NCBI GenBank assembly: GCA_041910055.1
Contig: JAYRRP010000004.1
Coordinates: forward strand, 67,804 to 131,803
Direction: 5' to 3'
Origin: Candidatus Saccharimonadales bacterium
GTDB lineage: Bacteria > Patescibacteriota > Saccharimonadia > Saccharimonadales > JAYRRP01
DNA length: 64,000 nt
The notes under the pieces are model-generated. The model worked only from the letters and a program-made list of their open reading frames with translations. It was not told the origin of the DNA and did no database searches. Within the stretch, counting starts at the first letter, position 1; each line of letters opens with the position of its first letter. Position numbers and translations under genes: made by a program. Positions 11,707-63,996 of this stretch are shown piece after piece.

Positions 11707-11711
11707 ACATT

Positions 11712-45351: not shown

Positions 45352-45430
45352 CCATTTTAAAGGATGCTGAATTGCATTGCCTCCCTAAAACGGAAATTAC
45401 TAACTAGCTTGTCGCCTACTTATGCAAGAA

Positions 45431-46993: not shown

Positions 46994-47088
46994 TGTCGTA
47001 GTTTAAGAAAGTAGTTACCTAACTGATATTAATAAAGTACAGTTTTTGTTATTAGTCAATCTTATTCTTTGATATAGTACTGCTTAAA

Positions 47089-47787
47089 TTAGTCCATAGA
47101 AAAAGTGGAACGCACCCCATCTGCCACAAGTCTTTCGTGGTAATGGTGCAAAGCATCAATGGTGAAGTTATCAATACGGTAATTATCAAGCAAGAAACGT
47201 GCAGCCCTTGAGAGGGCGGTAATTGAACTCACCTCAAAACCGTAATCATTTTCTAATACCTGTACACCACCTTCTTCGCGGTCAAACTGCAAAGTAATAG
47301 CTACCGGCTGTAGTCCGACAGCAGCCAACACTTGTGAACCTTCAACCTTTGATTTGCCATCGGTCACGACATCATCAGCCATAAGCACCGTCTCACCAGC
47401 GGTATAATCACCCTCGATTCTTTGATGGTGGCCATACGTTTTGTGTGACTCATCTATACGCTCCCAAAGATATGACATACCCGCTTCATATGCTGCAACA
47501 GCAGCCGTTGCAGTTGCAGCCTGCGCTTTACCAAAAATGTGGTCAACTGGATGCTCAATCTCGAAGAATTTAGCTGCATAACCAGCTACTAAGGCGCGTC
47601 TGAAATCACGTTGCTTCTCCATACTCATCTGACTATCACTATCAAACGAGAGACTGCCACGCATATTATAGTAATAAGGCGACGGGCGACCAGACTTTAG
47701 GGTAATACCACCTTCTGGAAAGCCAAGCAAGCCTCTATCAAACATACCGACTACGATTTGTTCTTCTTGGTGTTCTGGTAATGCCAT
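47089..47787 (-). CDS. pyrE: orotate phosphoribosyltransferase
   Basis: 232 aa; 'LKSGRPSPYYYN' and PRPP-binding 'VLMADDVVTDG' motifs. Confidence 0.8.
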   Translation of the reverse strand: MALPEHQEEQIVVGMFDRGLLGFPEGGITLKSGRPSPYYYNMRGSLSFDSDSQMSMEKQRDFRRALVAGYAAKFFEIEHPVDHIFGKAQAATATAAVAAYEAGMSYLWERIDESHKTYGHHQRIEGDYTAGETVLMADDVVTDGKSKVEGSQVLAAVGLQPVAITLQFDREEGGVQVLENDYGFEVSSITALSRAARFLLDNYRIDNFTIDALHHYHERLVADGVRSTFSMD

Positions 47788-48500
47788 TACGCAGCTCCTT
47801 CAACTTCAGCAACAAGCATTTCATATGCCTGGGCTGGATCTTCAGCCTGGGTTATTTGTCTGCCGATTACTAACAAATCAGCGCCCTCTCTAATAGCAAC
47901 TGCCGGCGTACCAACCCGAGCCTGGTCTGCACGTTCTATAGTCTCGGAGCGAGTACCTGGAATCATTGTAAGCAACTTTCGTGTCCTTAAATCGCGCTTG
48001 ATCATACCGACTTCGAGAGGTGATGAAACTACACCCGATATTCCAGCTGTGGCAGCATCCCGAGCAAGCTCCATTACTTTGCGACGCAATGACACATGAT
48101 ACAAGTTTTCAGCGACAGTTTCTGAAATAGATGTGAGCACTGTCACCCCGAACATCTTAATAGTTTCAGCTTCTTCTTTGGCGGCATACATTGTTTCGAC
48201 ACCCGTGGTCGTGTGCAAAGTAATACCAAAAGGCGGATGATCTAAGTTTTTAATGTTTCTGACTGTACTAACTACTGTGTTAGGTATATCGTCCAACTTT
48301 GCATCAGCTATCCAATCGAGATCGTGTGAAGCCGCCAACTCTGCACAATGACGCCAACTAGTAGCACTGGATAATTCTAGTCCTAGTTTTACATAGCGCG
48401 CCCCGGCCGCGTGCGCAATAGTGGCTAGCCGTTCCGCGTCTTGCTGTCGTGAGGTGTCGATCGCTAAAATAATACGTTCTTGGGCTGGTAATTCGTTCAT
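47787..48500 (-). CDS. pyrF: orotidine 5'-phosphate decarboxylase
   Basis: 237 aa; 'ILAIDT', 'VKLGLEL', 'ADAKLDDIPNTV' catalytic Lys/Asp motif. Confidence 0.85.
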   Translation of the reverse strand: MNELPAQERIILAIDTSRQQDAERLATIAHAAGARYVKLGLELSSATSWRHCAELAASHDLDWIADAKLDDIPNTVVSTVRNIKNLDHPPFGITLHTTTGVETMYAAKEEAETIKMFGVTVLTSISETVAENLYHVSLRRKVMELARDAATAGISGVVSSPLEVGMIKRDLRTRKLLTMIPGTRSETIERADQARVGTPAVAIREGADLLVIGRQITQAEDPAQAYEMLVAEVEGAA

Positions 48501-52382: not shown

Positions 52383-52823
52383 ATGGCGACTAAAAAGCAA
52401 GTTAAGGCAAATCTTAAGATGAAAATTCGCGGCGGACAAGCCAGCGCCGCTCCTCCTGTAGGTAGCACACTTGGTCAATATGGAGTCAATATGATGGACT
52501 TTATTAACCCCTTTAATGAACAGACCAAACCACTGCAGGGCAAGATGGTCACAGCACACATTACCATTTACGACGACCGCAGTATGAGTTTTCGAGTTGT
52601 GGGAGAACCAACTGATGATCTAATCCGTGCCAAACTTGGTATTGATAAGGGGTCAGGCAAGCCCAACAGCGAGAAAATCAACAAGAAACTTTCAAATAAG
52701 GACCTGCAGGATATTGCTGAGGCGAAGGCCAATGACATGAACACCGATGATGTCGACGCAGTCAAAAAGATGGTAGCGGGCACAGCCCGAAGTATGGGTG
52801 TGGAGATTGAGACAAATGGATGA
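52383..52823 (+). CDS. rplK: 50S ribosomal protein L11
   Basis: 146 aa; 'PPVGSTLGQYGVNMMDF...FN' conserved. Confidence 0.95.
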   Translation: MATKKQVKANLKMKIRGGQASAAPPVGSTLGQYGVNMMDFINPFNEQTKPLQGKMVTAHITIYDDRSMSFRVVGEPTDDLIRAKLGIDKGSGKPNSEKINKKLSNKDLQDIAEAKANDMNTDDVDAVKKMVAGTARSMGVEIETNG

Positions 52824-53068
52824 CAGTGGAACGAATTACGCCTGCATCAACAGAGTGTGAAGTCACACAGATTGTTGAAGATATGGGATATGCTAGCGTT
52901 GAACTAGAGAATCTGACAGAGGCCCTAATAAGTGGAGATGTTCCGCGTACCCCAATGCTGGAAGAAGCAATTGGAAACCTGACTTCTGAAGTTTGTCGAT
53001 TATACATACGCTATTTCAACAATCGTGAAGCTGATTGTCCTATAATTATTGAGTCCAGTGAGTTATAA
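52820..53068 (+). CDS. hypothetical small acidic protein inserted between rplK and rplA
   Basis: 82 aa; ATG overlaps the rplK stop (ATGA), suggesting translational coupling; no known motif. Confidence 0.4.
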   Translation: MTVERITPASTECEVTQIVEDMGYASVELENLTEALISGDVPRTPMLEEAIGNLTSEVCRLYIRYFNNREADCPIIIESSEL

Positions 53069-53127
53069 ATAATTAATTTTGTGGGAGGCCGTCGTAAAAG
53101 CCGCTTGCACCACGAAAGGAGCACATA

Positions 53128-54072
53128 ATGGCAAAAGAAGCCACCAAAAAGAAAACAAAAAAAGAAGAAGTAGCAGCTGAAAAAACTACCGTCGCAAAAA
53201 AAACTAACACGGAGCAGGTAAAGCCCGAAGCCAAACCAGCGGCCAAAGCTGGCAAACGCAGTATTAAGGCGTTAAAAGAAGTTGAAGAAAAACAGGCCAA
53301 AGAGACTAGGAAAGTCGCCGCCAAGGAAGCGGAGGCAGACAAGAAAACAAAGTCGGTCCAAAAACCTACACGCTCACGACTTGAACGCCGTGGGAAAAAA
53401 TATCGCGAAGCTGCCAAGCTGATTGATCCCAAGAAAGAATACGAATTGGCAGAAGCTTTAAAAATTATTGGCAAAACCAGTCCTGCGAAATTTGATGCCA
53501 GCGTTGAGTTGCACATTCGGTTAAATGTGGATCCACGTCAAGCTGATCAAAACGTACGAGACAGCGTTGTATTGCCAGCCGGAAGCGGGAAAGACGTAAA
53601 GATCGCCGTGGTAGCAGATGATTCACAAACCGATGCAGCGAAAGCAGCAGGAGCTGATATTATTGGCAATGATAAGATTTTTGCCCTGCTTGATAAAGAA
53701 ACTATTACCTTTGATATCCTTATCAGCACACCAGTCAATATGGCCAAACTTGGCAAATATGCCAAGTTGTTAGGGCCACGCGGACTTATGCCAAACCCAA
53801 AAAGTGGCACGGTGACCAATGATATTGAGAAGGCAATAACAGAAGCAAAGGCAGGCAAAGTTGAATATCGCGTTGACAGCAGTGGCATTTTACATATCCA
53901 TGTTGGCAAAGCTAGTTTTACGCCAGCTAAGCTTCAGCAGAACATAGAATCAGTATTTTCAAGTGTCAAGCAAGCAAAGCCCACTTCAGTGAAAGGAACT
54001 TTCATCCACTCCATACACTTAACTACCACTATGGGGCCAAGTCTGAAGATTTCAGCAAATACCGTATTGTAA
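53128..54072 (+). CDS. rplA: 50S ribosomal protein L1 with ~88-aa K/A/E-rich N-terminal extension
   Basis: 314 aa. The canonical L1 sequence begins near residue 88 ('GKKYREAAKLIDPKKEY...FDASVELHIRLNVDPRQADQ'). It is in frame with an upstream lysine/alanine-rich segment that has a perfect AAAGGAG SD; the alternative start is the in-frame GTG at 53389, which has no SD. Confidence 0.85.
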   Translation: MAKEATKKKTKKEEVAAEKTTVAKKTNTEQVKPEAKPAAKAGKRSIKALKEVEEKQAKETRKVAAKEAEADKKTKSVQKPTRSRLERRGKKYREAAKLIDPKKEYELAEALKIIGKTSPAKFDASVELHIRLNVDPRQADQNVRDSVVLPAGSGKDVKIAVVADDSQTDAAKAAGADIIGNDKIFALLDKETITFDILISTPVNMAKLGKYAKLLGPRGLMPNPKSGTVTNDIEKAITEAKAGKVEYRVDSSGILHIHVGKASFTPAKLQQNIESVFSSVKQAKPTSVKGTFIHSIHLTTTMGPSLKISANTVL

Positions 54073-54081
54073 TATATCAAT

Positions 54082-54726
54082 ATGGTCAAACGACAAAAGG
54101 GACAAGTGGTTGCTTTTGATGGTCCAGACGGCGTCGGGAAAACAACCCAGATTCAGCGCGCCACCCAATTCCTGCAAAAGCAAGGCTTCCGGGTATTAAC
54201 CACCCGTGCATCTGGCGGTACCCCAATTGGCGAAGCCTTACGCACCGTCTCACTCAGTCCAATTGAACGCCCAGCCGAGACTGACCTTTACATTTCACTG
54301 GCAATGCACACAGCACTTGGTAAAGAATTGACCAGGTTACGCAGTCAATTTGACTTCATTCTCATTGACCGAAGTCCACTAGCTATTATTGCCTACAATG
54401 TGTACGGCAGCGAAATGGAAAAGCAGACCAAGGGCCTGACAGCGTGCCGACAGATGCTCCAACTATGGAAATTAGATGCATTGCTTCTCCTAGAAGCACC
54501 AGTTTCAATATTAGATGCACGGCGCCAACACCGGGCTGGAAAAATAGATTATTTTGAACAAAAAGGTAAGGCTTACCGTCAACGAGTCAGAAAAGGTTAC
54601 CAGGTAGCTACTGACTTGGCAGAAAAAATCCGGCCAAAAGTCAAACTTATAAAAATTGAAGCTAGTCCCTCTATTGACCAAATTGAAGACCAAATCATCG
54701 CTCGATTGTTGTCACTCATACACTAG
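54082..54726 (+). CDS. tmk: thymidylate kinase
   Basis: 214 aa; P-loop 'FDGPDGVGKTT', 'DRS' (DRY-like) motif, lid region. Confidence 0.8.
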   Translation: MVKRQKGQVVAFDGPDGVGKTTQIQRATQFLQKQGFRVLTTRASGGTPIGEALRTVSLSPIERPAETDLYISLAMHTALGKELTRLRSQFDFILIDRSPLAIIAYNVYGSEMEKQTKGLTACRQMLQLWKLDALLLLEAPVSILDARRQHRAGKIDYFEQKGKAYRQRVRKGYQVATDLAEKIRPKVKLIKIEASPSIDQIEDQIIARLLSLIH

Positions 54727-54777
54727 TAATTGCACCTGGGGAAGGGAATCCGTACAATAGGTAACGAGAGGAGTGCT

Positions 54778-55491
54778 GTGGGAGTTTATAGCAATATCCA
54801 GATTCGGCGGGCTATTGATGAAGGACATATTATCTGCACGCCTTTTGATGAGCGACATGTATCGCATGCCAGCCTTGATGTCACCCTAGGCTATTACTAT
54901 TACCGAACTGACCGGCTCAGTGACCAGACAATCTACAACCCGTTCGACGAGGCAGAAGTAAATGAATACTTCGACGGCCCTCTTAGGGCATTGAATTATA
55001 AAGATTGGGCTGCCCAAAACCAGGTTGCCCAGCTTAAAGGCATACCCCCTAATCATCCAATTATTCCGCTTCGGCCCGGTGAACGTATATTGGCTCATAC
55101 CCATGAATTTTTTGGCATTAAACCACCGGGGGCTTATGAGGTAAAATCACGCTCCAGCTGGGGACGCAACGGAATTGCCGTTTGCTTTGATGCCGGCTGG
55201 GTAGACCCAGGTTATATTAATCGGCTCACGCTGGAAATTTTTAACCTCAACCAACACCGTGTCGTTCTTCTACCCGTTGGTGAACGTATTGCCCAAGCAG
55301 TTTTTTATGAGACTGGTGAAGTGGAGGGGAGCTACGGAGAAGGTCGTCACGGCGGCTTTAGCGGTAAGTACCAAAGTGGAACTGACTTATCGGAGCTCAT
55401 CAAAAGCTGGCAACCATCGATGATGTTACCTCGCGCCTATAAAGACAAACGCACACTGCCCAAGAAAGTGAAGGGTCTACGAAGTGACTAA
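54778..55491 (+). CDS. dcd: dCTP deaminase (dUTPase superfamily)
   Basis: GTG start with GAGGAG SD; blocks align with Dcd ('ASLDVTLG', 'RSSWGRNGIAV...DAGWVDPGY...LEIFN'); ~45-aa C-terminal tail. Confidence 0.8.
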   Translation: MGVYSNIQIRRAIDEGHIICTPFDERHVSHASLDVTLGYYYYRTDRLSDQTIYNPFDEAEVNEYFDGPLRALNYKDWAAQNQVAQLKGIPPNHPIIPLRPGERILAHTHEFFGIKPPGAYEVKSRSSWGRNGIAVCFDAGWVDPGYINRLTLEIFNLNQHRVVLLPVGERIAQAVFYETGEVEGSYGEGRHGGFSGKYQSGTDLSELIKSWQPSMMLPRAYKDKRTLPKKVKGLRSD

Positions 55492-55533
55492 CCGATTCTT
55501 TCGCCACGCGATAGCAGGGTGGAGGAAACCGGT

Positions 55534-57915
55534 ATGAACACTGAACCAGGAACTTTTTTCGTTATTGAGGGGACAGATGGCTCCGGCAAAGGTACACAGT
55601 TTAAGCTACTGGCAGAGAGGCTACAAACCGCTGGTTATGATATTGCCACCTTTGACTTCCCCCAGTACGAGAAACCGTCTAGTTATTTCATCAAACAGTA
55701 TTTGAATGGCGTCTACGGTAGCAGTCAGGAAGTGGGACCTTATACTGCTTCACTTTTCTACGCACTTGATCGCTATGAAGCTTCGACAGGTATCCGTCAG
55801 GCGCTTAAGCAAGGCAAGATAGTCCTCTGCAATCGCTTTACTGGCTCAAATATGGCTCATCAAGGCACTAAATTTAATCATCCCGAAGAACGGCGGGGAT
55901 TCTATATATGGCTCGATAATCTCGAATTCCAACTGCTACGCGTGCCACGTCCGACCAAGAATATTGTGCTGCGCATCGATGCAAATTATGCCCAACAACT
56001 TGTCGACCAGAAAGAAACCCGTTCCTATACTGATAAAAAACGCGATCTTCATGAAGCTGACCTTAACCACTTGCAACGCTCAATTGAAGTCTATGATGAA
56101 CTCTGTGAGCTGTTCCCTAAAGATTTCCAACGATTAGACTGCATACGCGATAATCGTCTGCTTGAAATCGAAACAGTACACGAGCTACTCTGGAAAACTA
56201 TCCAACCATTTTTGCCCCCCCAACCTCAATTGACAACTGCAAAAAGCCAAATAGTCACCAAAGAGAAACCGGTCTCACACCGTCCTTTAGTTGAACATAA
56301 GAAAAATGGGGCTTACCAGATCACCGATGAAGGAAAACATTATTTACGTGACGTGGTTACTAATACCGACGAAAGCACCTATGCTTTCACTGACAAACTT
56401 AGCCAAGTCACCATTGCTGCCGCTATGGCTCGTTTATCACGTCGTGGCGACGATATGCGTGTCACAATTTTGGATGAATTCGCTGAGAGCGCACATAAAG
56501 ATGAGCAGCTACTCAAGCGAGTTATCACTGCATATGGAGATGACTCTGTCCAGCAGCTAGCTGGGCAGCATATTGTGGTTGAAAACGCGTCGAACTTGCT
56601 AACCAAAAAGCTTGAATGGGGCCGGCTGGCTTCATATCTTGAACAATCAACTCGTTATATATTTTTTGATCAAAAAAATGCCCTAGGGAACTATCGTTAC
56701 TTCATTCCACCTGAGTTCAGCAAGAAACATCGTCAGGTCTATTTAAGCGCAATGGATTTCATATTTGACACCTACTCAACTTTAGTGAGACAACTCACTG
56801 ATTACGTGCGCCAGCATTCAACTGTCCCTAAAAAAGAGCAGGACGTAGCTTGGAAAGGAGCTACTCGTGCCCAGGCATGTGACGCTGCTCGAGGCGTGCT
56901 GCCTGTCGCCACCACCTCGACCGTAGGAATCTACGCTTCCGGCCAGGCACTAGAGAGCTTAATAATGCATTTGCTGGCTGACGAGCTGCCAGAAGCCCGT
57001 AAAATTGGGAACGATATATTGCATGAATCGCGTAAAGTTCTCCCGGTCTTTTTAGAACGTGCCGATAAACCCGAGCGAGGTGGTGCGGCGATTGCCTTTA
57101 AAGCCGAAACGACGAAGAATACCCGTAATCTGGCAGCCAATATGTTGCCCGATAGCTATAGTTCTTCTGACCAACCCATCACTTTAACTGACTGGTGGCC
57201 AAAGAACGAGTTGGATCTTGTCGCTGATATGTTGTATGAACATTCCCAGCTTTCATTAGAAGAAATCAGGCAAGTGGTAACCGGATGGAAATATGATGCC
57301 AAAGCAAAAGTAATACAAACATACATTGGGGACAGGCTCAACCGTCGACATAAGCCTGGACGCGCCCTGGAAAAAGCTCACTATAGCTGGGATATTCTCT
57401 GTGACTATGGCATATTTCGTGACCTGCAGCGCCACCGCATAGTGGATGACATGGAATGGCAAAAACTTACTCCCCGCTACGGCTATGAAATTCCCTCGCT
57501 TGTTGATGAAGCAGGCCTCAGCGAGCTTTACGAGCAATGTTTTGATAAAAGCCTCGAGCTTTATAGCTACTTACAGACAAATGGGTTTGATTTAGCCTCT
57601 CAGTACGCGGTTCTATTGGGTCACCGTATGCGCTGGAAAGTGACCTACAATGCACGCGAAGCCTTCCATTTGCACGAGCTTAGGACCTCTCCACAGGGAC
57701 ACCCTGGCTACCGAAAACTCGTCAAACAAATGCACGAGAAACTATGCGAAGTCCACCCTCTTATTGGTGAAGGTATGAAATTTGTCAATAAAGATGAGGA
57801 TCCTGAACTAACCAGATTGGCAGCCGAACGCTATACCCAATTCAAGCTCACTCAGATGGATACTGCGCCAACCTCTGTAAAACCAGCTGTTGACAAAAGT
57901 GATCCTCAAGAGTAA
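55534..57915 (+). CDS. fusion protein: N-terminal thymidylate-kinase-like domain + tandem ThyX-like (flavin-dependent thymidylate synthase) domains
   Basis: ~793 aa. N-terminal ~225 aa carry 'IEGTDGSGKGTQ' P-loop and 'DRYEAS' tmk motifs. The C-terminal ~500 aa carry two ThyX-like signatures: 'AAAMARLSRRGD' (cf. AARVS) with 'WGRLASYLEQSTRY' (cf. RHRxASYxExSxRY), then 'QRHRIV...RY' with 'LHELRTSPQGH' (cf. LNLRADSHAQ). Confidence 0.6.
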   Translation: MNTEPGTFFVIEGTDGSGKGTQFKLLAERLQTAGYDIATFDFPQYEKPSSYFIKQYLNGVYGSSQEVGPYTASLFYALDRYEASTGIRQALKQGKIVLCNRFTGSNMAHQGTKFNHPEERRGFYIWLDNLEFQLLRVPRPTKNIVLRIDANYAQQLVDQKETRSYTDKKRDLHEADLNHLQRSIEVYDELCELFPKDFQRLDCIRDNRLLEIETVHELLWKTIQPFLPPQPQLTTAKSQIVTKEKPVSHRPLVEHKKNGAYQITDEGKHYLRDVVTNTDESTYAFTDKLSQVTIAAAMARLSRRGDDMRVTILDEFAESAHKDEQLLKRVITAYGDDSVQQLAGQHIVVENASNLLTKKLEWGRLASYLEQSTRYIFFDQKNALGNYRYFIPPEFSKKHRQVYLSAMDFIFDTYSTLVRQLTDYVRQHSTVPKKEQDVAWKGATRAQACDAARGVLPVATTSTVGIYASGQALESLIMHLLADELPEARKIGNDILHESRKVLPVFLERADKPERGGAAIAFKAETTKNTRNLAANMLPDSYSSSDQPITLTDWWPKNELDLVADMLYEHSQLSLEEIRQVVTGWKYDAKAKVIQTYIGDRLNRRHKPGRALEKAHYSWDILCDYGIFRDLQRHRIVDDMEWQKLTPRYGYEIPSLVDEAGLSELYEQCFDKSLELYSYLQTNGFDLASQYAVLLGHRMRWKVTYNAREAFHLHELRTSPQGHPGYRKLVKQMHEKLCEVHPLIGEGMKFVNKDEDPELTRLAAERYTQFKLTQMDTAPTSVKPAVDKSDPQE

Positions 57916-58014
57916 AATCCGTCTCGATATGACAAATAAGGTGGTCATGCTCAACCTCTTTATTATTAGCTCACAGGAGCTTGGTTGAGTATTTTCACTT
58001 TAAAAAGTAAAACC

Positions 58015-58039
58015 AGGCTCCACCAGGAGCCTTTTTTTA
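58015..58039 (+). terminator. Rho-independent terminator after the ThyX-fusion gene
   Basis: AGGCTCC-acca-GGAGCCT followed by TTTTTTT. Confidence 0.65.
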
Positions 58040-58054
58040 TGAAGGAACATCCAT

Positions 58055-59275
58055 ATGTACGAACAAACCAAATCCCAAGAATTAGCAGCTAACCGGTCGT
58101 TTCAGATAGAAATAAACGACCACTACACGCTGAACGAAATAGTTGCAATTCACGGAGCTCAAGAAACCTCAATACAAAGAACACCTCACACAGGCAACAT
58201 CAACCTTTCTCATATTTTGCATTTTGAGTTAGGATTACCAGCGGTACTTTACGATCGCAACAAAGGAAAACTGGATGGCACTTTTCATCCACACATGGTA
58301 GTGAACCAGAATGGTGCAGAACAGATAAGTGCTGACGATGTTTTAATGACCCATGCACGCATTGATACCCCTCACAATCTTTCCGAGGACCATAGTGATT
58401 TATTCCCGTTAGGCAGCAAAGTTGCCGACGCACACACACAAGCAATCCGTCGTATTTTTCCTGATGTGAATATTTCACAGTACTCCGAATATTTATCTGA
58501 AAACAACCAGTTTGTGAACGATATCTTACAGGTTGTTTCACGACATTATGAGGGTGACCTATGGAAACGTTGGGTGGAACCTGACGGTAATACAAAAACT
58601 ATGCGGCCAGAAACCAATACTGACGCAGCCACCCAAATCTACGGTGTTAACGATGAGGAGAAAGGCTGGATAATTGCAAACCAGATTAATGTGCTTCTAA
58701 TGGCGGCTGTCGAAGCCAAGAAATACGGTACTGATCGGGTATATCATGTCTCTGGTCCTGACATGTATCGCTATATTGACGACATGAAAGGAGAGTTAGA
58801 TTACTTATACTCCACTGTACGAGAAAAATTACCTCAACATCAACTACCGAGACGGTTAGAGTTTGTAGTAGTACCAATGGCAAATATTCGTTTCGTAACC
58901 CACGAGCAAAAGAGTAACGCAACTGAAGAATTGGTAAGTATGTGGCCAGTTTACAAAACCATGCTACAGGAAAAGAAAGATTTTTTCATAGATCTACGTA
59001 GTAGTGACAAAGAAAAGGAAGAGAAAGCAGAGGAAACTAAAAATTATATTCGGGATCGAGAGCGGCCCGTCTTGGACGCAATTCAGGCACAATGCAAAAC
59101 CTGCCCAGAACTCTTTTTTGATACCTCCCAAAAAAGCCATCTTACACAATACGACTTACTCAACGGCTATGGTCACAATTTAAAGATACCGAAAACGCTT
59201 CTAGACATGCCTATTAAAGAAATAAATGAGATGTATAAAGCGTATGAAAAAATAAGCTCTATCAATCTCAAATAG
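58055..59275 (+). CDS. hypothetical protein (406 aa), no recognisable domain
   Basis: Long ORF with normal composition between a terminator and the rplJ leader; own transcription unit. Confidence 0.5.
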   Translation: MYEQTKSQELAANRSFQIEINDHYTLNEIVAIHGAQETSIQRTPHTGNINLSHILHFELGLPAVLYDRNKGKLDGTFHPHMVVNQNGAEQISADDVLMTHARIDTPHNLSEDHSDLFPLGSKVADAHTQAIRRIFPDVNISQYSEYLSENNQFVNDILQVVSRHYEGDLWKRWVEPDGNTKTMRPETNTDAATQIYGVNDEEKGWIIANQINVLLMAAVEAKKYGTDRVYHVSGPDMYRYIDDMKGELDYLYSTVREKLPQHQLPRRLEFVVVPMANIRFVTHEQKSNATEELVSMWPVYKTMLQEKKDFFIDLRSSDKEKEEKAEETKNYIRDRERPVLDAIQAQCKTCPELFFDTSQKSHLTQYDLLNGYGHNLKIPKTLLDMPIKEINEMYKAYEKISSINLK

Positions 59276-59508
59276 CTCCTCAAATACGAATCGTACCCAC
59301 ATTGACGTAAGGAGAAATGAGTAGTATGATATTTATAGTTGCCAAAGACAGTGACGTCCTGAATAAGGATTAAGAATGTCACCGAGGTAGAAACAACGTT
59401 TCTTGCTATTCAAGTCTTTGGTTAATCGCCAAAGATTTTTATTTTTTAAGGCAACAATTTTGTGTAAGGTCGATGCGCAAAATAAAATTACTATAATGAG
59501 GTAGTAAA

Positions 59509-60036
59509 ATGGCAATTAGTAAAACCAAAAAAGAAGAAGTGGTTCAGGAAATTGGACAGTTGCTGAGTAGTACAAAGCTCACAGTCGTAGCATCATATCA
59601 AGGCACTGACGTCAAAGGAATGCAACAGCTCAGAAAGGCTGCGCGCGAAAACCACACCACTGTACGAGTTGCGAAGAACCGCTTGGTAGCTAAAGCACTT
59701 TTGTCTAACGACCAGCTAAAAGGCGTGGATCTTTCAGCCCTTAAAGGACAGTTACTCTATGCTTTTAACGCCGAAGATGAAGTAGCGGGAGCTCAAGTCT
59801 TAGCTACGTTTGCCAAAACAAACCCAAGTGTCGAGTTTATCGGCGCCATTACACCAGAAGGTGTCTTTATGGCAGCGGACGATGTAAAAGCCTTGGCTGC
59901 ATTGCCAAGTAAAGATCAACTGCGCGCTCAGTTAATCGGTACGCTTCAAGCACCATTCGGTAGCTTTGTAAATGTACTGGCTGGTAACGTACGCGGCATA
60001 CTAAATGTGTTAAACGCTCGAGCAGAATCATTGTAA
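59509..60036 (+). CDS. rplJ: 50S ribosomal protein L10
   Basis: 175 aa; typical L10 N-terminus; preceded by a 230-nt leader (the L10/L12 autoregulatory leader is expected here). Confidence 0.9.
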
Positions 60037-60056
60037 TAGAACGAAAGGACAATTTT

Positions 60057-60470
60057 ATGGCAGAAGAAAATAAGAAGGTAGAAGTTCCAAAAGAATTCGA
60101 AAAACTGGTCAGTGAGCTGGACAAAATGTCTGCGCTTGAAATCAGTAAATTTGTAAAATTTCTCGAGGAATATTGGGGAGTAAGTGCAGCTGCACCTGCT
60201 GTTGCAGTGGCTGCACCAGCAGCAGGTGGCGGTGAACAAGCGGAAGCCAGCGAAGAGAAAAGTGAGTACGACGTAGTCTTGAAAGATGCCGGCGCTCAAA
60301 AGGTGGCCGTTATTAAGGCCGTAAAAGAAATCACGAACTTAGGTCTGGGTGAGGCAAAAGCTCTGGTAGACGGTGCGCCAAAGACAATCCTTGAAAAGGT
60401 CAAGAAAGACGACGCCGAAAAAGCCAAGAAATCTCTTGAAGAAGCTGGTGCTACAGCTGAGTTAGCGTAA
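60057..60470 (+). CDS. rplL: 50S ribosomal protein L7/L12
   Basis: 137 aa; Ala-rich hinge '[15 protein letters not shown]', CTD '[11 protein letters not shown]...[16 protein letters not shown]'. Confidence 0.95.
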
Positions 60471-60625
60471 AGAACTTCCTATTCTATAATTTACTAATTA
60501 TTGTAGAGGGTGTCAGTACGTTTATCCACAGTAGATGTATTTGTTTTTGACTGAAAAAAGCAAATATGATATTTTTAGGCGTAAGTGTACCTAGACAAAC
60601 ACTTCTTGGGAGACAAAGGAATATC

Positions 60626-61135
60626 ATGGCAGACGTACCAGATAAACAAGTCAAACGTCTGAAGAGCCTCATCCAGGAGGCAGAGACCAGTTTGGCTGCA
60701 GCAAAAGAGCTATTACTTAGTTTGGTTGGCGAGGAACCAGAAGTAACCGCCTCAGTAAAAGAAGAAGCACTCGGTAAGATTGTCGAGGGAGTTTTTGATG
60801 GGCAGAACATGGTTGGTTCAGACAGTAAGACCTATCCGGTACCAGCTAATTACGCCTCAAAATCTAAACTCGTGCAAGGTGACATCCTTAAGCTGACCAT
60901 TGCTGAGGATGGTTCCTTTATGTACAAACAAATTGGCCCCATCCCTCGCAAGCAACTAGTTGGCGCTCTAGAATTGAAAGACGGTCACTATTTTGTCGTC
61001 GTCGGTGACAAACGTTACCGCGTACTGCTCGCCAGTGTGACCTATTTTAAAGCTAAACCTGGCGATCAGGTGAGTGTGAACGTACCCGAAGAAGATGATA
61101 GCGCCGAGTGGGCAGCCCTCGAAGCTGCACTCTAA
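60626..61135 (+). CDS. hypothetical protein
   Basis: ATG at 60626 with AAAGGA SD (the ORF-track start at 60566 is less likely); 169 aa; no known motif. Confidence 0.4.
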   Translation: MADVPDKQVKRLKSLIQEAETSLAAAKELLLSLVGEEPEVTASVKEEALGKIVEGVFDGQNMVGSDSKTYPVPANYASKSKLVQGDILKLTIAEDGSFMYKQIGPIPRKQLVGALELKDGHYFVVVGDKRYRVLLASVTYFKAKPGDQVSVNVPEEDDSAEWAALEAAL

Positions 61136-61236
61136 GCCTTAGCCGACCAACTAACCCCAAGCCAGCCACGCACAGACATTTTGTGCGAGATTACACAACA
61201 CTTGCTCATAGAGATTTTCAGTATAATAAGTAGGCT

Positions 61237-62613
61237 ATGGGGCAAGTGTTATACAGGAAATACCGGTCACGTAATTTTGATGAAGTCGTCGGACAAGATC
61301 ATATTGTCCAGGCCCTCAAAAATTCGCTCAAATCTGGCAAAATCAGCCATGCTTATCTTTTTACTGGGCCGCGTGGTGTAGGAAAGACTAGCATTGCCCG
61401 CATCTTAGCACACGCAGTGAACGACTTGGACTACCAGAACGAGAGCACTAATATCGACATAATAGAAATCGATGCGGCCAGCAATCGTCGTATCGACGAA
61501 ATCCGTGATTTACGGGAGAAAGCCCGCGTTCTGCCGGTGGCTGCCAAATACAAGGTGTACATTATCGACGAAGTTCACATGCTGACTCGCGAGGCCTTTA
61601 ATGCACTCCTTAAAACGCTCGAAGAGCCTCCCGCACATGTCGTATTTATTTTAGCTACCACTGAGGCCCACAAGTTGCCAGCAACCATCATTAGCCGTAC
61701 CCAACGCTACTCATTTAAGCCAATTGCTGCGAACATTATGAATAAACACCTGGTACTCATTGCGAAACGTGAGAACATAGAGATCGAACCACCAGCGCTT
61801 GAGATTATCGCCAAACAAGCCGACGGAAGTTTCCGCGATGCAATTAGTCTTTTGGATCAAACCCGCGGCCTCTCCTCACCAATAGATGTGTCTCAGGTAC
61901 AGTCATTACTTGGCGTTATGCCTGAAACAAGTGTTGATAATCTACTCGAGCTATTACGTGAAGGTGACGGCGCCAAACTCAGTCATAGTTTGCAAGATTT
62001 AGCACGGCAATCATACAACCCGGTCACATTAAGTAACCAAATCATTCAACGATTACGCCAACAATTATTGGCTTCAAATAGCCGCGAAGAACAATTAAGA
62101 CTGTTAAGCCTTTCACACAAACTTCTTAAGGTACCCTCCCAAGCTCAACCATTGCACTACCTTGAACTGATTCTGCTGGAAGAAGCGCTCGGCAAAACCT
62201 CTGTAAACACAGATAGTAAGCCGAGACAAGCAAACCCGGAAACCACACCGCATCAAAAGACCGCTACCGCCAAAAGAGTTAAACAAGCTAAACTTGATGA
62301 ACAATTATGGTCGTCAGTTTTAGAAACAATTAAGGAGCACCACAACACGCTCTACGGCATATTGAGGATGGGAAGTGCAAATTTCGAGGGGGCCGTGCTG
62401 GTCTTAAGTTTTGAATTTCCATTTCACCAACGTCGAATTTCAGAAACGAAAAACAAGCAAATAATTATTGAGACTATCCAGAAATTATGCGGCCAAACGG
62501 TCACCATAGAATGCCGCATCCATAAACCAACCACTGCCGCCCCTACAAACGAAAATATTGCCCTTCAAACGATAAGCAATATTTTTGGTGATGCAGAAGT
62601 GCTAGACTCGTAA
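61237..62613 (+). CDS. dnaX: DNA polymerase III subunit gamma/tau (short form)
   Basis: 458 aa; 'HAYLFTGPRGVGKTSIARILA', 'IIDEVHMLT', sensor motifs; lacks the long tau C-terminal domains. Confidence 0.9.
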   Translation: MGQVLYRKYRSRNFDEVVGQDHIVQALKNSLKSGKISHAYLFTGPRGVGKTSIARILAHAVNDLDYQNESTNIDIIEIDAASNRRIDEIRDLREKARVLPVAAKYKVYIIDEVHMLTREAFNALLKTLEEPPAHVVFILATTEAHKLPATIISRTQRYSFKPIAANIMNKHLVLIAKRENIEIEPPALEIIAKQADGSFRDAISLLDQTRGLSSPIDVSQVQSLLGVMPETSVDNLLELLREGDGAKLSHSLQDLARQSYNPVTLSNQIIQRLRQQLLASNSREEQLRLLSLSHKLLKVPSQAQPLHYLELILLEEALGKTSVNTDSKPRQANPETTPHQKTATAKRVKQAKLDEQLWSSVLETIKEHHNTLYGILRMGSANFEGAVLVLSFEFPFHQRRISETKNKQIIIETIQKLCGQTVTIECRIHKPTTAAPTNENIALQTISNIFGDAEVLDS

Positions 62614-62631
62614 ATTATAGGTAGGAAGAAT

Positions 62632-63996
62632 ATGCCAAACGGGCCCGATGACGCCATAATACCGCCGCAGAACACAGAAGCAGAGGCTAGCCTGCTGGGA
62701 GCTTTGCTAATAGACAGTGACGCGATTGTGAAAATCGCCGACCAACTGACACCAGGCGATTTTTATGACCCAAAACACCAGCATATCTACGAGGCAGCCA
62801 AACAACTTTATGATAAACACAGTCCAATTGACGTACTAACTCTCTCTGACCAGCTTAAATCCAATGACATGCTTGAAGAGGTAGGGGGAGCCGCCTATTT
62901 AACTGAGCTGACAAATTTTGTGCCAACTGCTGCTCATATCGAAAAATATGCTGAAATTGTTGCCCAAAAGTCTTTACGGCGACGTCTTATAAAAGCTTCA
63001 CAGGAGATCGTTACCCTCGGCTATAACGAAGCCGAAAACCTGCCAGACCTCATCGAACAAGCTGAAAGCCGTCTTTTTGAGGTTAGCCAGCGCCACGTTA
63101 AACAAGACGTAACCAGTTTGGAATCAATTCTCTCAGAGAGCTTTGACCGGCTGGACGAGCTACATAAAGATAAAGATAAAATCCGTGGTATTCCGACCGG
63201 TTTTAAAGACCTCGATAATATTCTTGCCGGACTGCAACAATCAGATCTTTTCATTCTTGCTGCCCGGCCTTCGATGGGGAAAACGGCACTCGCCCTCAAT
63301 ATTGCTCACAATGTTTCCTTAGGTGCCAAACAACCAGTCTTACTTTTCAGTTTAGAAATGAGCAAAGAACAGCTTGTGGACCGAATGCTGGCAATGGAAT
63401 CAGGCGTCCACGCCTGGGCCCTTCGGACCGGCAATTTATCTGATTCAGATTTTGAAAAAATTGGTCAGGCTATGGGAGCTTTGAGCGAAGCCAGTATTTA
63501 TATCGATGATACTCCTAGCATCACAGTGAGTGAACTGCGCACGAAGGCGCGTCGTGAGGCTCATAAACACCAGCTTGGCCTGATTATTGTCGACTACTTG
63601 CAACTAATGAGTGGGGGCTCCCGCTTCAGCGGTGACGGTAACCGAGTCCAAGAAATCACTGAAATATCAAGAGGACTCAAGAGCATCGCGCGCGAGCTGA
63701 ACGTGTCGTTAATTGCGCTAAGCCAGCTCAGTCGTTCAGTCGAAAGTCGTAGTCCACAAATCCCGCAACTACAAGATCTTAGGGAATCAGGCTCAATCGA
63801 ACAAGACGCGGATGTAGTTGCTTTTATTTACCGAGAGGACTACTACAATCCAGAGACTGAGCGTCGTAACTTAACTGATATCCTGATTAAGAAACACCGT
63901 AATGGGCCAACCGGAGGTGTTGAACTTTTCTTCGACCGCGAAACCCAACGTTTCCGAAGTCTGGACAAAAAACACACTCAACCGTTTGCCGACTAA
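62632..63996 (+). CDS. dnaB: replicative DNA helicase DnaB
   Basis: 454 aa; Walker A 'ARPSMGKTALALNIA', 'IIVDYLQLM', 'SQLSR' motifs. Confidence 0.95.
   Translation: MPNGPDDAIIPPQNTEAEASLLGALLIDSDAIVKIADQLTPGDFYDPKHQHIYEAAKQLYDKHSPIDVLTLSDQLKSNDMLEEVGGAAYLTELTNFVPTAAHIEKYAEIVAQKSLRRRLIKASQEIVTLGYNEAENLPDLIEQAESRLFEVSQRHVKQDVTSLESILSESFDRLDELHKDKDKIRGIPTGFKDLDNILAGLQQSDLFILAARPSMGKTALALNIAHNVSLGAKQPVLLFSLEMSKEQLVDRMLAMESGVHAWALRTGNLSDSDFEKIGQAMGALSEASIYIDDTPSITVSELRTKARREAHKHQLGLIIVDYLQLMSGGSRFSGDGNRVQEITEISRGLKSIARELNVSLIALSQLSRSVESRSPQIPQLQDLRESGSIEQDADVVAFIYREDYYNPETERRNLTDILIKKHRNGPTGGVELFFDRETQRFRSLDKKHTQPFAD

What the first reader, a model, noticed from the sequence alone, without database searches (positions are those of the whole stretch)
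54082..59275. Thymidylate island (tmk - dcd - tmk-like::tandem-ThyX fusion - unknown 406-aa protein) splitting the rplKA / rplJL ribosomal cluster
The usually contiguous rplK-rplA-rplJ-rplL cluster is interrupted by about 5.4 kb encoding a dTMP kinase, a dCTP deaminase, and a ~790-aa protein. That protein's N-terminus is a second thymidylate-kinase-like P-loop domain ('IEGTDGSGKGTQ', 'DRYEAS'). Its C-terminus contains two divergent copies of the ThyX flavin-dependent thymidylate synthase signature ('WGRLASYLEQSTRY', 'QRHRIV...RY', 'LHELRTSPQGH'). The island therefore encodes most of the dCTP -> dUMP -> dTMP -> dTDP route, with kinase and synthase physically fused, followed by an unassignable 406-aa protein. 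A TMPK-ThyX fusion with an internally duplicated ThyX fold is not a standard bacterial architecture. It suggests substrate channelling of dUMP/dTMP in a genome that appears metabolically reduced. The second RHR motif is degenerate (no Ser in RHRx7S), so one ThyX half may be a non-catalytic pseudo-subunit.
Basis: partly seen in the sequence, partly recalled or inferred. Interest (0 to 1): 0.7.

Follow-up and report, generated by a model that had tools for sequence, protein, structure and literature searches.

The report
Thymidylate kinase fused to duplicated ThyX
A Saccharibacteria genome carries, between two ribosomal-protein operons, a gene that fuses a thymidylate kinase to a duplicated flavin-dependent thymidylate synthase; the arrangement is real and shared by hundreds of related species, and has been auto-annotated but apparently never studied.

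Summary
Window 54082-59275 encodes a stand-alone dTMP kinase, a dCTP deaminase, a 798-aa protein and a 406-aa orphan, all between rplKA and rplJL. The 798-aa protein has an N-terminal dTMP-kinase domain and two Thy1/ThyX domains.

It is not an artefact and not a recent island.
- At least 565 species genomes encode the full-length fusion, and the best 80 are all Saccharibacteria.
- Nearly all of those 80 show rplA - dcd - fusion - variable genes - rplJ.
- rplJ keeps its own L10 leader (RF00557).
- A terminator-like hairpin follows the fusion gene, so tmk, dcd and the fusion look like a 3' extension of the rplKA operon.

Duplicated ThyX without the kinase is a large family, noted in 2009 as uncharacterised.

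The new result is that the two ThyX halves have lost complementary sets of residues.
- Half 2 keeps RHR, R165 and R174, which contact FAD and uracil.
- Half 1 has WGR in place of RHR but keeps E86, S88, R90, Y91 and R147, the substrate loop.
- Set against published subunit roles, this predicts a homodimer with two composite active sites instead of four.

The 406-aa protein remains unassigned, with four homologues and no family or fold match. Novelty is moderate: a new variant of known enzymes.

The parts
52383..54072 (+). rplK (52383-52823), a small 82-aa ORF (52820-53068) and rplA (53128-54072): the upstream ribosomal operon that the thymidylate genes follow with 9-nt and 3-nt gaps
   Evidence: Pfam Ribosomal_L11_N/L11 and Ribosomal_L1. 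No terminator-like site on the + strand between rplK and 58015 with a stem of more than 5 pairs; three 5-pair sites inside dcd and the fusion gene lack a T-run.
54082..54726 (+). Stand-alone dTMP kinase gene, classical bacterial type (214 aa)
   Evidence: PF02223 E 4e-15. TIGR00041 67.8 bits, below the cut-off of 83.25. Best solved relatives are T. maritima and Aquifex TMPK, E 3e-16. A homologue sits at this position in only 11 of 69 related loci.
54730..55491 (+). dCTP deaminase gene (dcd), possibly the dUMP-forming bifunctional type. The mechanical TTG start is probably about 16 codons too far upstream, because relatives are 235-237 aa.
   Evidence: PF22769 107 bits. TIGR02274 88.9 bits against a cut-off of 92.8. 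Nearest solved chains are 4xjc (4e-15), M. tuberculosis 2qxx (4e-12) and M. jannaschii 'dCTP deaminase, dUMP-forming' 1ogh (2e-6); 2j4h, which I recall as the E. coli enzyme, scores only 4e-3. Directly upstream of the fusion in 72 of 75 loci.
55549..56211 (+). N-terminal dTMP-kinase domain of the fusion protein (aa ~11-231). P-loop G18-T-D20-G-S-G-K24-G-T26; N105-R106-F107 at the DR(Y/H/F) position; LID arginines R168 and R175.
56212..56310 (+). Linker between the kinase and ThyX parts (aa 232-264), variable in sequence and predicted disordered
   Evidence: pLDDT below 50 for aa 238-254. No consensus residues in these alignment columns.
56311..57168 (+). ThyX half 1 (aa 265-550), proposed substrate-loop donor. 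W367-G368-R369 replaces RHR. E375, S377, R379, Y380 and R458 are kept (= T. maritima E86, S88, R90, Y91, R147). Q476 and L486 stand at the R165 and R174 positions.
   Evidence: PF02511 E 1.6e-18. hhalign to T. maritima ThyX E 1.3e-4, probability 54%, aligning its residues 69-201. Family residue frequencies.
57169..57861 (+). ThyX half 2 (aa 551-781), proposed FAD and RHR donor. It keeps R634, R638-H639-R640, N711, R713, R722 and H728. T651 stands at the S88 position, Q695 at R147 and K649 at E86.
   Evidence: PF02511 E 5.2e-17. hhalign to T. maritima ThyX probability 95%, E 2e-8, aligning its residues 34-205. Family residue frequencies.
58015..58038 (+). Intrinsic-terminator-like hairpin plus T-run (AGGCTCCACCAGGAGCC-T7), 100 nt after the fusion stop codon; probable end of the rplK-to-fusion transcript
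   Evidence: Terminator scan; sequence read directly.
58055..59275 (+). 406-aa orphan protein of unknown function; a lineage-specific occupant of the variable slot between the fusion gene and rplJ
59302..59452 (+). Promoter-like site (59302-59330) and ribosomal protein L10 leader (59324-59452), showing that rplJL is a separate regulated unit
   Evidence: RF00557 59 bits against a gathering score of 44, E 1.4e-7, model positions 1-138 of 138. TTGACG-17-TATGAT, 10 of 12 matches.
59509..60470 (+). rplJ and rplL
   Evidence: Pfam Ribosomal_L10 and Ribosomal_L12_N/L12.

Best explanation
This is the Saccharibacteria-wide thymidylate gene cluster. It is appended to the 3' end of the rplK-rplA operon and ends before the L10 leader of rplJL.

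Proposed pathway:
- Dcd converts dCTP to a deoxyuridine nucleotide, probably dUMP directly.
- The 798-aa protein is a bifunctional enzyme. Its C-terminal duplicated ThyX module methylates dUMP to dTMP, using FAD, NADPH and methylene-tetrahydrofolate.
- Its N-terminal kinase domain, of the M. tuberculosis type, phosphorylates dTMP to dTDP.

Proposed ThyX assembly (inferred):
- The duplicated ThyX is not two equivalent enzymes in one chain.
- Half 2 supplies the FAD-binding RHR motif, R165 and the uracil-polarising R174.
- Half 1 supplies the substrate loop (E86, S88, R90, Y91) and R147.
- Two chains should therefore form a pseudo-tetramer with two complete composite active sites and two dead ones.

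What is shown: the genes, the domains, their conservation, the synteny, the L10 leader and the complementary residue pattern.
What is inferred: the enzyme activities, the dimeric half-of-sites assembly, co-transcription with rplKA, and any channelling of dTMP between the two activities.

The stand-alone tmk and the 406-aa gene are variable accessories of this lineage, not core parts of the cluster.
For: Domains:
- Thy1 is found twice and Thymidylate_kin once, all well above the Pfam thresholds.
- The P-loop Lys, D20, Y50, F80, R85, R106, N111 and the LID arginines are invariant in 44 sequences.

Conservation:
- The 120 best homologues are all 770-1047 aa with the same domains.
- At least 565 species genomes encode it, and the best 80 are all Saccharibacteria with full-length matches.
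- dcd is adjacent in 72 of 75 loci, rplA upstream in 67 of 69 and rplJ downstream in 55 of 57.
- dcd and the fusion gene overlap by 4-8 nt in relatives, and one genome fuses all three activities into a 1047-aa protein.

Operon boundaries:
- L10 leader at 59324-59452.
- Terminator-like hairpin at 58015-58038, with no comparable + strand site upstream: three 5-pair sites inside dcd and the fusion gene lack a T-run.
- Gaps of 9, 3 and 27 nt between rplA, tmk, dcd and the fusion gene.

Residue pattern in 94 unfused tandem ThyX representatives:
- Half 1 has R80 in 94, E86 in 92, S88 in 93, R90 in 92, Y91 in 90 and R147 in 94. It never has His at the H79 position, and has Q at R165 in 66.
- Half 2 has R78 in 93, H79 in 92, R80 in 92, R165 in 91 and R174 in 92. 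It has Q at R147 in 69, R90 kept in only 24, and Y91 mostly L or H.
- The same residues are invariant in the Saccharibacteria fusion family.

Published subunit roles in M. tuberculosis ThyX (PMC6514825): RHR and R199 (= R174) come from subunit A, R190 (= R165) from subunit B, and S105, R107 and Y108 (= S88, R90, Y91) from subunit C. In PBCV-1 ThyX, Gln75 and Arg182 come from monomer A and Ser88 and Gln89 from monomer B (PMC3498832). If the two half-2 domains play A and B and the two half-1 domains play C and D, D2 symmetry gives exactly two complete sites.

Dcd: the nearest solved relatives include two dUMP-forming enzymes, M. tuberculosis 2qxx and M. jannaschii 1ogh (PMC5519681 for mycobacterial Dcd:dut).
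Against: - No activity has been measured for any tandem or kinase-fused ThyX that I could find.
- The NCBIfam equivalog cut-offs for thyX, dTMP kinase and dCTP deaminase are all missed, so these are divergent members.
- The kinase has Asn instead of Asp in the DR(Y/H/F) motif.
- The AF2 model is mediocre (pLDDT 69; the active-site loops 367-382, 621-647 and 705-732 are below 50). Its coordinates could not be inspected, so the pseudo-dimer geometry is untested.
- Neither structure search showed a ThyX match, because P-loop kinases fill the lists.
- Half 1 aligns to T. maritima ThyX with only 54% probability, and only from residue 69 onward.
- The subunit that contributes R147 is taken from my memory, not from a cited source.
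- Half 2 of the Saccharibacteria proteins still keeps R653 and often Y654. The 'dead' sites might therefore retain some binding.
- Co-transcription rests only on a consensus terminator scan.
Confidence: 0.7

Rival explanations
1. The N-terminal kinase-like domain is not a catalytic dTMP kinase. It is a nucleotide-sensing regulatory domain, for example one that binds dTMP or dTTP to feed back on ThyX. True dTMP-kinase activity would then come from a separate enzyme such as the stand-alone tmk at 54082-54726.
For: - The DR(Y/H/F) Asp is replaced by Asn (N105, invariant).
- The NCBIfam equivalog cut-offs are missed.
- This genome also carries a classical tmk right next to the fusion gene.
Against: - The stand-alone tmk is found next to rplA in only 11 of 69 related loci. 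For most species the fused domain may therefore be the only one nearby.
- The P-loop Lys/Thr, D20, R85, R106 and the LID arginines are invariant. That is not expected of a pure binding domain.
Confidence: 0.12
2. Both ThyX halves are catalytically competent, so the chain is simply a covalently linked ThyX dimer with four working sites per dimer of chains. The substitutions would be neutral or compensated.
For: - Both halves pass the Pfam Thy1 threshold.
- Half 1 keeps R80 and half 2 keeps R653 in Saccharibacteria.
- A third of unfused family members have Arg at the half-1 R78 position.
Against: - No representative has R78, R165 and R174 together in half 1, and only 2 of 129 have an intact RHR there.
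- His79 is never present in half 1 of the 94 unfused representatives.
- Half 2 has lost R147 (Q in 96 of 129) and E86.
- R78 and S88/Y91 are described as important for flavin stabilisation and catalysis (PMC11940539).
Confidence: 0.12
3. The region is a recently acquired genomic island, or a mis-assembly, that split rplKAJL.
For: - The 406-aa gene has lower G+C (0.410) and only four homologues.
- The content of the slot between the fusion gene and rplJ differs between species.
Against: - The core dcd + fusion between rplA and rplJ is conserved in the 80 best Saccharibacteria species genomes.
- Its G+C is close to the genome's.
- An identical architecture is seen on many independent contigs.
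- Only the accessory genes, the 406-aa gene and perhaps tmk214, look like lineage-specific gains.
Confidence: 0.04

Closest known systems
Canonical homotetrameric ThyX / flavin-dependent thymidylate synthase (T. maritima TM0449, PDB 1o26; M. tuberculosis; PBCV-1 A674R)
   Same: - The same Thy1 fold family, for both halves.
- The same set of FAD and dUMP residues, once the two halves are taken together.
- The expected chemistry: dUMP to dTMP with FAD, NADPH and CH2H4folate, with no need for DHFR.
   Different: - All solved ThyX chains are single-domain, 216-270 aa.
- Here two diverged domains share one chain, and neither carries a complete RHRx7S motif.
- Two rather than four active sites per pseudo-tetramer are predicted.
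- A kinase domain is attached.
- Similarity to solved ThyX is too low for phmmer or a family profile to detect.
Duplicated (tandem) ThyX without a kinase, about 520-560 aa, noted in Chloroflexi by Valas & Bourne 2009 (PMC3224940) as 'not characterized'
   Same: - The C-terminal 534 aa align end to end at 33-56% identity with many such proteins. There are 739 clusters at E <= 1e-30.
- They show the same complementary residue pattern.
   Different: - The Saccharibacteria form has the N-terminal dTMP-kinase domain and a linker of about 30 aa.
- Its half 2 keeps the R90 equivalent, which most unfused forms have lost.
- From memory only, untested: Chlamydia trachomatis ThyX, studied biochemically in 2005, is about 530 aa and may belong to this class.
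M. tuberculosis-type thymidylate kinase (PDB 1g3u)
   Same: - Equivalents of D9, Y39, F70, R74, R95 and N100 are conserved.
   Different: - N105 replaces D94 and H114 replaces Y103.
- The P-loop has Gly where M. tuberculosis has R14.
- The domain is covalently tied to ThyX.
Bifunctional DHFR-TS of protozoa and plants (consecutive steps of thymidylate metabolism fused in one chain)
   Same: The logic is the same: two consecutive enzymes of dTMP metabolism sit in one polypeptide, which in DHFR-TS allows intermediate channelling (established knowledge).
   Different: The folds and the steps are unrelated (ThyA + DHFR against ThyX + TMPK). Channelling here is pure speculation.
Bifunctional dCTP deaminase:dUTPase (M. 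jannaschii 1ogh, M. tuberculosis 2qxx)
   Same: They rank among the closest solved relatives of the neighbouring dcd product. Such an enzyme would deliver dUMP directly to ThyX.
   Different: The protein here is 235-253 aa, against about 177-204 aa. The residues that determine bifunctionality were not examined.

Membership tests
ThyX / FDTS (Pfam PF02511 Thy1; NCBIfam TIGR02170) | Thy1 domain profile match above Pfam's gathering score | tested here: met
   Half 1 scores 67.6 bits and half 2 scores 62.7 bits, against 24.8. The whole protein scores 123.1 bits in 2 stretches.
ThyX / FDTS (Pfam PF02511 Thy1; NCBIfam TIGR02170) | NCBIfam equivalog score for thyX (cut-off 87.9 bits) | tested here: not met
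   57.1 bits.
ThyX / FDTS (Pfam PF02511 Thy1; NCBIfam TIGR02170) | Contiguous ThyX motif RHRx7-8S within one domain | tested here: not met
   Half 1 reads W367-G368-R369-x7-S377. Half 2 reads R638-H639-R640-x10-T651. The motif is complete only across the two halves.
ThyX / FDTS (Pfam PF02511 Thy1; NCBIfam TIGR02170) | Full set of FAD and dUMP contact residues (R78, H79, R80, S88, R90, Y91, R147, R165, R174) | tested here: inconclusive
   Every residue is present, but they are split between the halves. Half 2 holds R78, H79, R80, R165 and R174. Half 1 holds S88, R90, Y91 and R147.
ThyX / FDTS (Pfam PF02511 Thy1; NCBIfam TIGR02170) | Homotetramer with four active sites, each built from three subunits; FAD-dependent dTMP synthesis | not testable with these tools
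   No model coordinates and no multimer prediction were available, and there is no biochemistry.
Duplicated (tandem) ThyX | Two Thy1 domains in one chain, alignable end to end with the ~520-560-aa family | tested here: met
   Query residues 3-515 of 534 align with unfused proteins of 526-546 aa at 49-55% identity. There are 739 clusters at E <= 1e-30.
dTMP kinase (PF02223; TIGR00041; NF005923): fused domain | Pfam profile above the gathering score, and a TMPK fold | tested here: met
   [not shown]
dTMP kinase (PF02223; TIGR00041; NF005923): fused domain | NCBIfam equivalog cut-offs | tested here: not met
   NF005923 scores 122 against 193; TIGR00041 scores 68.5 against 83.25.
dTMP kinase (PF02223; TIGR00041; NF005923): fused domain | P-loop GxxGxGK[ST], the catalytic Arg of the DR(Y/H/F) motif, and LID arginines | tested here: inconclusive
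   The P-loop (G18...K24-G-T26), R106, R168 and R175 are invariant. The motif Asp is Asn (N105).
dTMP kinase: stand-alone gene 54082-54726 | Pfam profile above the gathering score; NCBIfam equivalog cut-off | tested here: inconclusive
   PF02223 scores 56.4 against 27, which is met. TIGR00041 scores 67.8 against 83.25, which is not met. The motif reads D-R-S (alignment).
dCTP deaminase (PF22769; TIGR02274) | Profile match above the curated cut-offs | tested here: inconclusive
   Pfam scores 107 bits against 27, which is met. TIGR02274 scores 88.9 against 92.8, just missed.
dCTP deaminase (PF22769; TIGR02274) | Product is dUMP (bifunctional) rather than dUTP (monofunctional) | not testable with these tools
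   The only evidence is the ranking of solved relatives.
Ribosomal protein L10 leader (Rfam RF00557) | Covariance-model score above the gathering threshold, located directly upstream of rplJ | tested here: met
   59 bits against 44, full-length match at 59324-59452, 57 nt before rplJ.

The most novel reading that the evidence does not exclude
Tandem ThyX enzymes, including the Saccharibacteria kinase fusions, are obligate asymmetric pseudo-tetramers. One duplicated domain has become a pseudo-subunit that only lends its substrate loop to the flavin-binding domain, which halves the number of active sites. In Saccharibacteria a dTMP kinase is tethered to this machine and hands dTMP straight on to dTDP. 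The whole unit is transcribed as the tail of the L11-L1 ribosomal operon, so thymidylate supply is tied to ribosome synthesis in an organism that must scavenge most other nucleotides.
Probability: 0.3. Interest if true: 0.55.

Novelty: new variant of a known kind. Interest (0 to 1): 0.4.

Why it matters
- ThyX is an antibacterial target and a mechanistically unusual flavoenzyme whose active sites need three subunits. A natural single-chain version, in which evolution has split the roles of 'flavin holder' and 'substrate-loop donor' between two domains, would be a ready-made tool. It would allow the contribution of each subunit to be dissected, which is hard in a homotetramer.
- For Saccharibacteria (TM7), which are epibionts with reduced genomes, the cluster shows that de novo thymidylate synthesis from dCTP is retained. 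It is hard-wired next to the core translation genes across the clade.
- The kinase fusion is a clean Rosetta-stone link between two consecutive steps.
- None of this changes a paradigm. The enzymes and the pathway are textbook, and the architecture is already in public databases.

Tried and rejected
- **Artefact or frameshift origin of the fusion:** rejected.
- **Recent island or mobile element:** rejected for the core genes on synteny and G+C.
- **AlphaFold-database library:** not installed.
- **Sequence searches against solved ThyX:** phmmer of each half and a family profile against PDB sequences found no ThyX. The residue map therefore rests on hhalign of deeper half-profiles against T. maritima ThyX.
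- **Literature searches:**
  - ThyX with Saccharibacteria, and 'flavin-dependent thymidylate synthase' with 'fused' and 'thymidylate kinase', each found no paper; ThyX with 'thymidylate kinase', 'fusion' and Saccharibacteria found one irrelevant paper.
  - Tandem or duplicated ThyX returned two papers, of which only one sentence in Valas & Bourne 2009 concerns a duplicated ThyX.
  - CT632 with ThyX found no paper.
- **A divergent fused representative (P0252):** its relatives are again Saccharibacteria, so I found no evidence for the fusion outside that clade.
- **Rest of the window:** no dut, thyA or tdk was seen among the 20 genes scanned outside the ribosomal-protein blocks. This says nothing about the whole genome.


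Full report
**What is in the sequence**

The + strand of window 51.7-62.6 kb reads as follows:
- nusG
- rplK (52383-52823)
- an 82-aa ORF
- rplA (53128-54072)
- a 214-aa thymidylate kinase (54082-54726)
- a dCTP deaminase (54730-55491)
- a 798-aa protein (55519-57915)
- a 406-aa protein (58055-59275)
- rplJ (59509-60036)
- rplL (60057-60470)
- a 189-aa protein, dnaX and dnaB

The 798-aa protein has PF02223 Thymidylate_kin at aa 16-207. Scanned in pieces, it has PF02511 Thy1 twice: aa ~298-510 (E 1.6e-18) and aa ~568-747 (E 5.2e-17).

**Is the fusion real, and how common is it?**

- A search of 5.8 billion proteins gave more than 4000 hits. The best 120 all have the same kinase + Thy1 architecture; 119 are 770-806 aa and the other is the 1047-aa triple fusion described below. 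They include a 97%-identical protein seen on 7 contigs.
- Source names include 'thymidylate kinase/thymidylate synthase ThyX' (JGI) and 'FAD-dependent thymidylate synthase [Candidatus Saccharimonadales]'.
- A scan of one genome per species found at least 565 genomes that encode a relative. The best 80 are all Saccharibacteria MAGs, apart from a few oddly labelled bins, and all match over the full length.
- A divergent fused representative (35% identical) again has only Saccharibacteria and Patescibacteria relatives.
- One genome fuses Dcd as well, giving a 1047-aa protein.

The fusion is thus a clade-wide feature, not an artefact.

**Is it an island?**

No. A tblastn of the window's proteins against the 80 loci gave these counts:
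- dcd lies immediately upstream of the fusion in 72 of 75 loci.
- rplA lies upstream in 67 of 69 loci, with a median gap of 1.7 kb.
- rplJ lies downstream in 55 of 57 loci, with a median gap of 2.3 kb.

The variable content lies around this core. A homologue of the stand-alone tmk is present in 11 of 69 loci. Other species carry an LPG-synthase-like gene, an M20 peptidase or a threonine dehydratase in these slots.

The 406-aa protein has only four homologues in the whole protein collection. Every one sits between a fusion gene and rplJ.

G+C of tmk, dcd and the fusion gene (0.46-0.49) is close to the window's 0.451. The 406-aa gene is at 0.410.

**Operon context**

- A complete L10 leader (RF00557, 59 bits against a gathering score of 44) lies at 59324-59452, preceded by a 10/12 promoter-like site. 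rplJL is therefore an independent, autoregulated unit, as in other bacteria, and the thymidylate genes sit at the natural operon boundary.
- rplA, tmk, dcd and the fusion gene are separated by 9, 3 and 27 nt.
- The first convincing + strand terminator-like element after rplK is a GC-rich hairpin with a T7 run at 58015-58038, 100 nt past the fusion stop codon; the three + strand sites listed inside dcd and the fusion gene have 5-pair stems and no T-run.
- I infer, but have not shown, that tmk, dcd and the fusion gene are transcribed as a 3' extension of the rplKA operon.

**The kinase domains**

The fused domain:
- Using the printed alignment, the equivalents of M. tuberculosis D9, Y39, F70, R74, R95 and N100 are D20, Y50, F80, R85, R106 and N111. 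All are invariant in 44 Saccharibacteria sequences.
- The DR(Y/H/F) motif reads N105-R106-F107, and Y103 is replaced by H114.

The stand-alone 214-aa kinase:
- It is of a different lineage. It resembles T. maritima and Aquifex TMPK (E 3e-16).
- It is not detectably similar to the fused domain by BLASTP (E 0.19).

Both kinases miss the NCBIfam equivalog cut-offs.

**The duplicated ThyX**

- The C-terminal 534 aa, searched alone against 1.84 billion cluster representatives, found 3645 clusters at E <= 1e-3 and 739 at E <= 1e-30.
- The best include many unfused proteins of 520-560 aa that align end to end at 33-56% identity, alongside kinase-fused forms of about 720-800 aa.
- No solved structure is of this type. 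All PDB ThyX chains are 216-270 aa, and neither the halves nor the family profile detect them by sequence.

**Residue map**

I built half-profiles from 128 diverse tandem sequences and aligned them to T. maritima ThyX. I had typed that sequence from memory and verified it as identical to 1kq4/1o26. The alignments were as follows:
- Half 2 aligns with 95% probability (E 2e-8, T. maritima residues 34-205).
- Half 1 aligns with 54% probability (E 1.3e-4, residues 69-201).
- Half 1 against half 2 gives 71% probability.

| T. maritima residue | Half 1 | Half 2 |
|---|---|---|
| R74 | K363 | R634 |
| R78-H79-R80 | W367-G368-R369 | R638-H639-R640 |
| E86 | E375 | K649 |
| S88 | S377 | T651 |
| R90 | R379 | R653 |
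| Y91 | Y380 | Y654 |
| R147 | R458 | Q695 |
| N163 | S474 | N711 |
| R165 | Q476 | R713 |
| R174 | L486 | R722 |
| H178 | none | H728 |

This pattern is family-wide. Among 94 unfused representatives:
- Half 1 has R80 in 94, E86 in 92, S88 in 93, R90 in 92, Y91 in 90 and R147 in 94. It never has His at the H79 position, and has Q at the R165 position in 66.
- Half 2 has R78 in 93, H79 in 92, R80 in 92, R165 in 91 and R174 in 92. It has Q at the R147 position in 69, keeps R90 in only 24, and has mostly L or H at the Y91 position.
- No representative has R78, R165 and R174 together in half 1.

**Mechanistic reading (inference)**

- In M. tuberculosis ThyX, one active site uses RHR and R199 (= R174) from subunit A, R190 (= R165) from subunit B, and S105, R107 and Y108 (= S88, R90, Y91) from subunit C (PMC6514825).
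- PBCV-1 ThyX shows the same split, with Gln75 and Arg182 on one monomer and Ser88 and Gln89 on another (PMC3498832).
- Suppose two tandem chains dimerise so that the two half-2 domains take roles A and B and the two half-1 domains take roles C and D. The D2 arrangement then gives two complete sites (A+B+C and B+A+D). The other two sites would be built from the degenerate faces.
- The prediction is one FAD per chain and a half-1 that acts as a loop-donating pseudo-subunit.
However, it is half 1 that lost RHR, and neither half could work alone.
- I could not test the geometry. The AF2 monomer model is mediocre (pLDDT 69, active-site loops below 50), its coordinates are not exposed, and kinases saturated the fold searches.

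**The deaminase**

- It matches PF22769 strongly but scores just under the TIGR02274 cut-off.
- Its nearest solved relatives are 4xjc, M. tuberculosis 2qxx and M. jannaschii 1ogh. The depositors named 1ogh 'dUMP-forming', and mycobacterial Dcd:dut is bifunctional (PMC5519681).
- 2j4h, which I recall as the monofunctional E. coli enzyme, is much more distant, at 4e-3.
- This weakly favours direct dCTP -> dUMP conversion, which would make the cluster a self-contained dCTP -> dTDP route.
- No dut or thyA was seen among the 20 genes scanned outside the ribosomal-protein blocks, but 64 kb says little about the whole genome.

**The 406-aa protein**

- It has no family match in four libraries.
- AF2 gives pLDDT 63.6, with the most conserved segment (aa 38-127) below 50.
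- I treat it as a lineage-specific accessory of unknown function. Nothing ties it to nucleotide metabolism except its position.

**Novelty and verdict**

- The components are textbook enzymes, and the architecture is already auto-annotated in public databases.
- No paper in the searchable library describes a kinase-ThyX fusion, ThyX in Saccharibacteria, or the properties of duplicated ThyX beyond the 2009 remark.
- From memory only, Chlamydia ThyX may be a tandem form with some published biochemistry. I could not verify this.
- I rate the finding a new variant of a known kind, with moderate interest (0.4).
- The most useful product of this check is the complementary-degeneration pattern and the two-site prediction it makes.

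Noticed in passing
window 8086-15524 and 59509-63996: rpoB and rpoC lie about 40 kb upstream of rplKAJL, directly in front of rpsL, rpsG, fusA, tuf and the S10/spc block. rplL is instead followed by a 189-aa protein with no Pfam match, then dnaX and dnaB. The usual rplKAJL-rpoBC linkage is therefore broken in this genome.
   Followed up: partly
window 53128-54072: RplA is 314 aa. The L1 domain covers only aa 116-304 and is preceded by a Lys/Glu/Ala-rich extension of about 110 aa. Relatives have the same length (295-318 aa).
   Followed up: no
window 52820-53068: An 82-aa ORF lies between rplK and rplA and overlaps the rplK stop codon. Gene callers place ORFs of 62-80 aa at the same spot in several relatives. 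Similarity is very low (28% in the nearest relative) and there is no family match, so it is either a fast-evolving small protein or spurious.
   Followed up: partly
window 57890-58047: The best sigma-70-like promoter match in the region (TTGACA-17-TAAAAT, 11 of 12) overlaps the fusion stop codon and is followed by the terminator-like hairpin at 58015-58038. The 117 nt between them gave only a chance-level Rfam hit (Atu_C8, E 0.43). This could be a short transcript or a coincidence.
   Followed up: no
L009 8001-11144 (protein P0108): One Saccharibacteria genome encodes a 1047-aa triple fusion of Dcd, dTMP kinase and tandem ThyX. In other relatives dcd and the fusion gene overlap by 4-8 nt.
   Followed up: partly
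L005 14742-15329: A relative with a contig of about 1.04 Mb carries a thymidine kinase gene (PF00265) about 1.3 kb downstream of rplL, so further thymidine-nucleotide genes gather at this locus.
   Followed up: no
window 54082-54726: The stand-alone tmk gives a weak PADLOC hit to the candidate defence component PDC-M51B (E 1e-6), as well as phage thymidylate-kinase PHROGs. This most likely reflects only the shared kinase fold.
   Followed up: no
window 40947-48500 (- strand): A GH15 + GH57 glycoside-hydrolase pair (40947-44167) and an OMP-decarboxylase/HUMPS-family gene (47787-48500) sit next to two proteins with no Pfam match (45431-46993 and 47089-47787).
   Followed up: no
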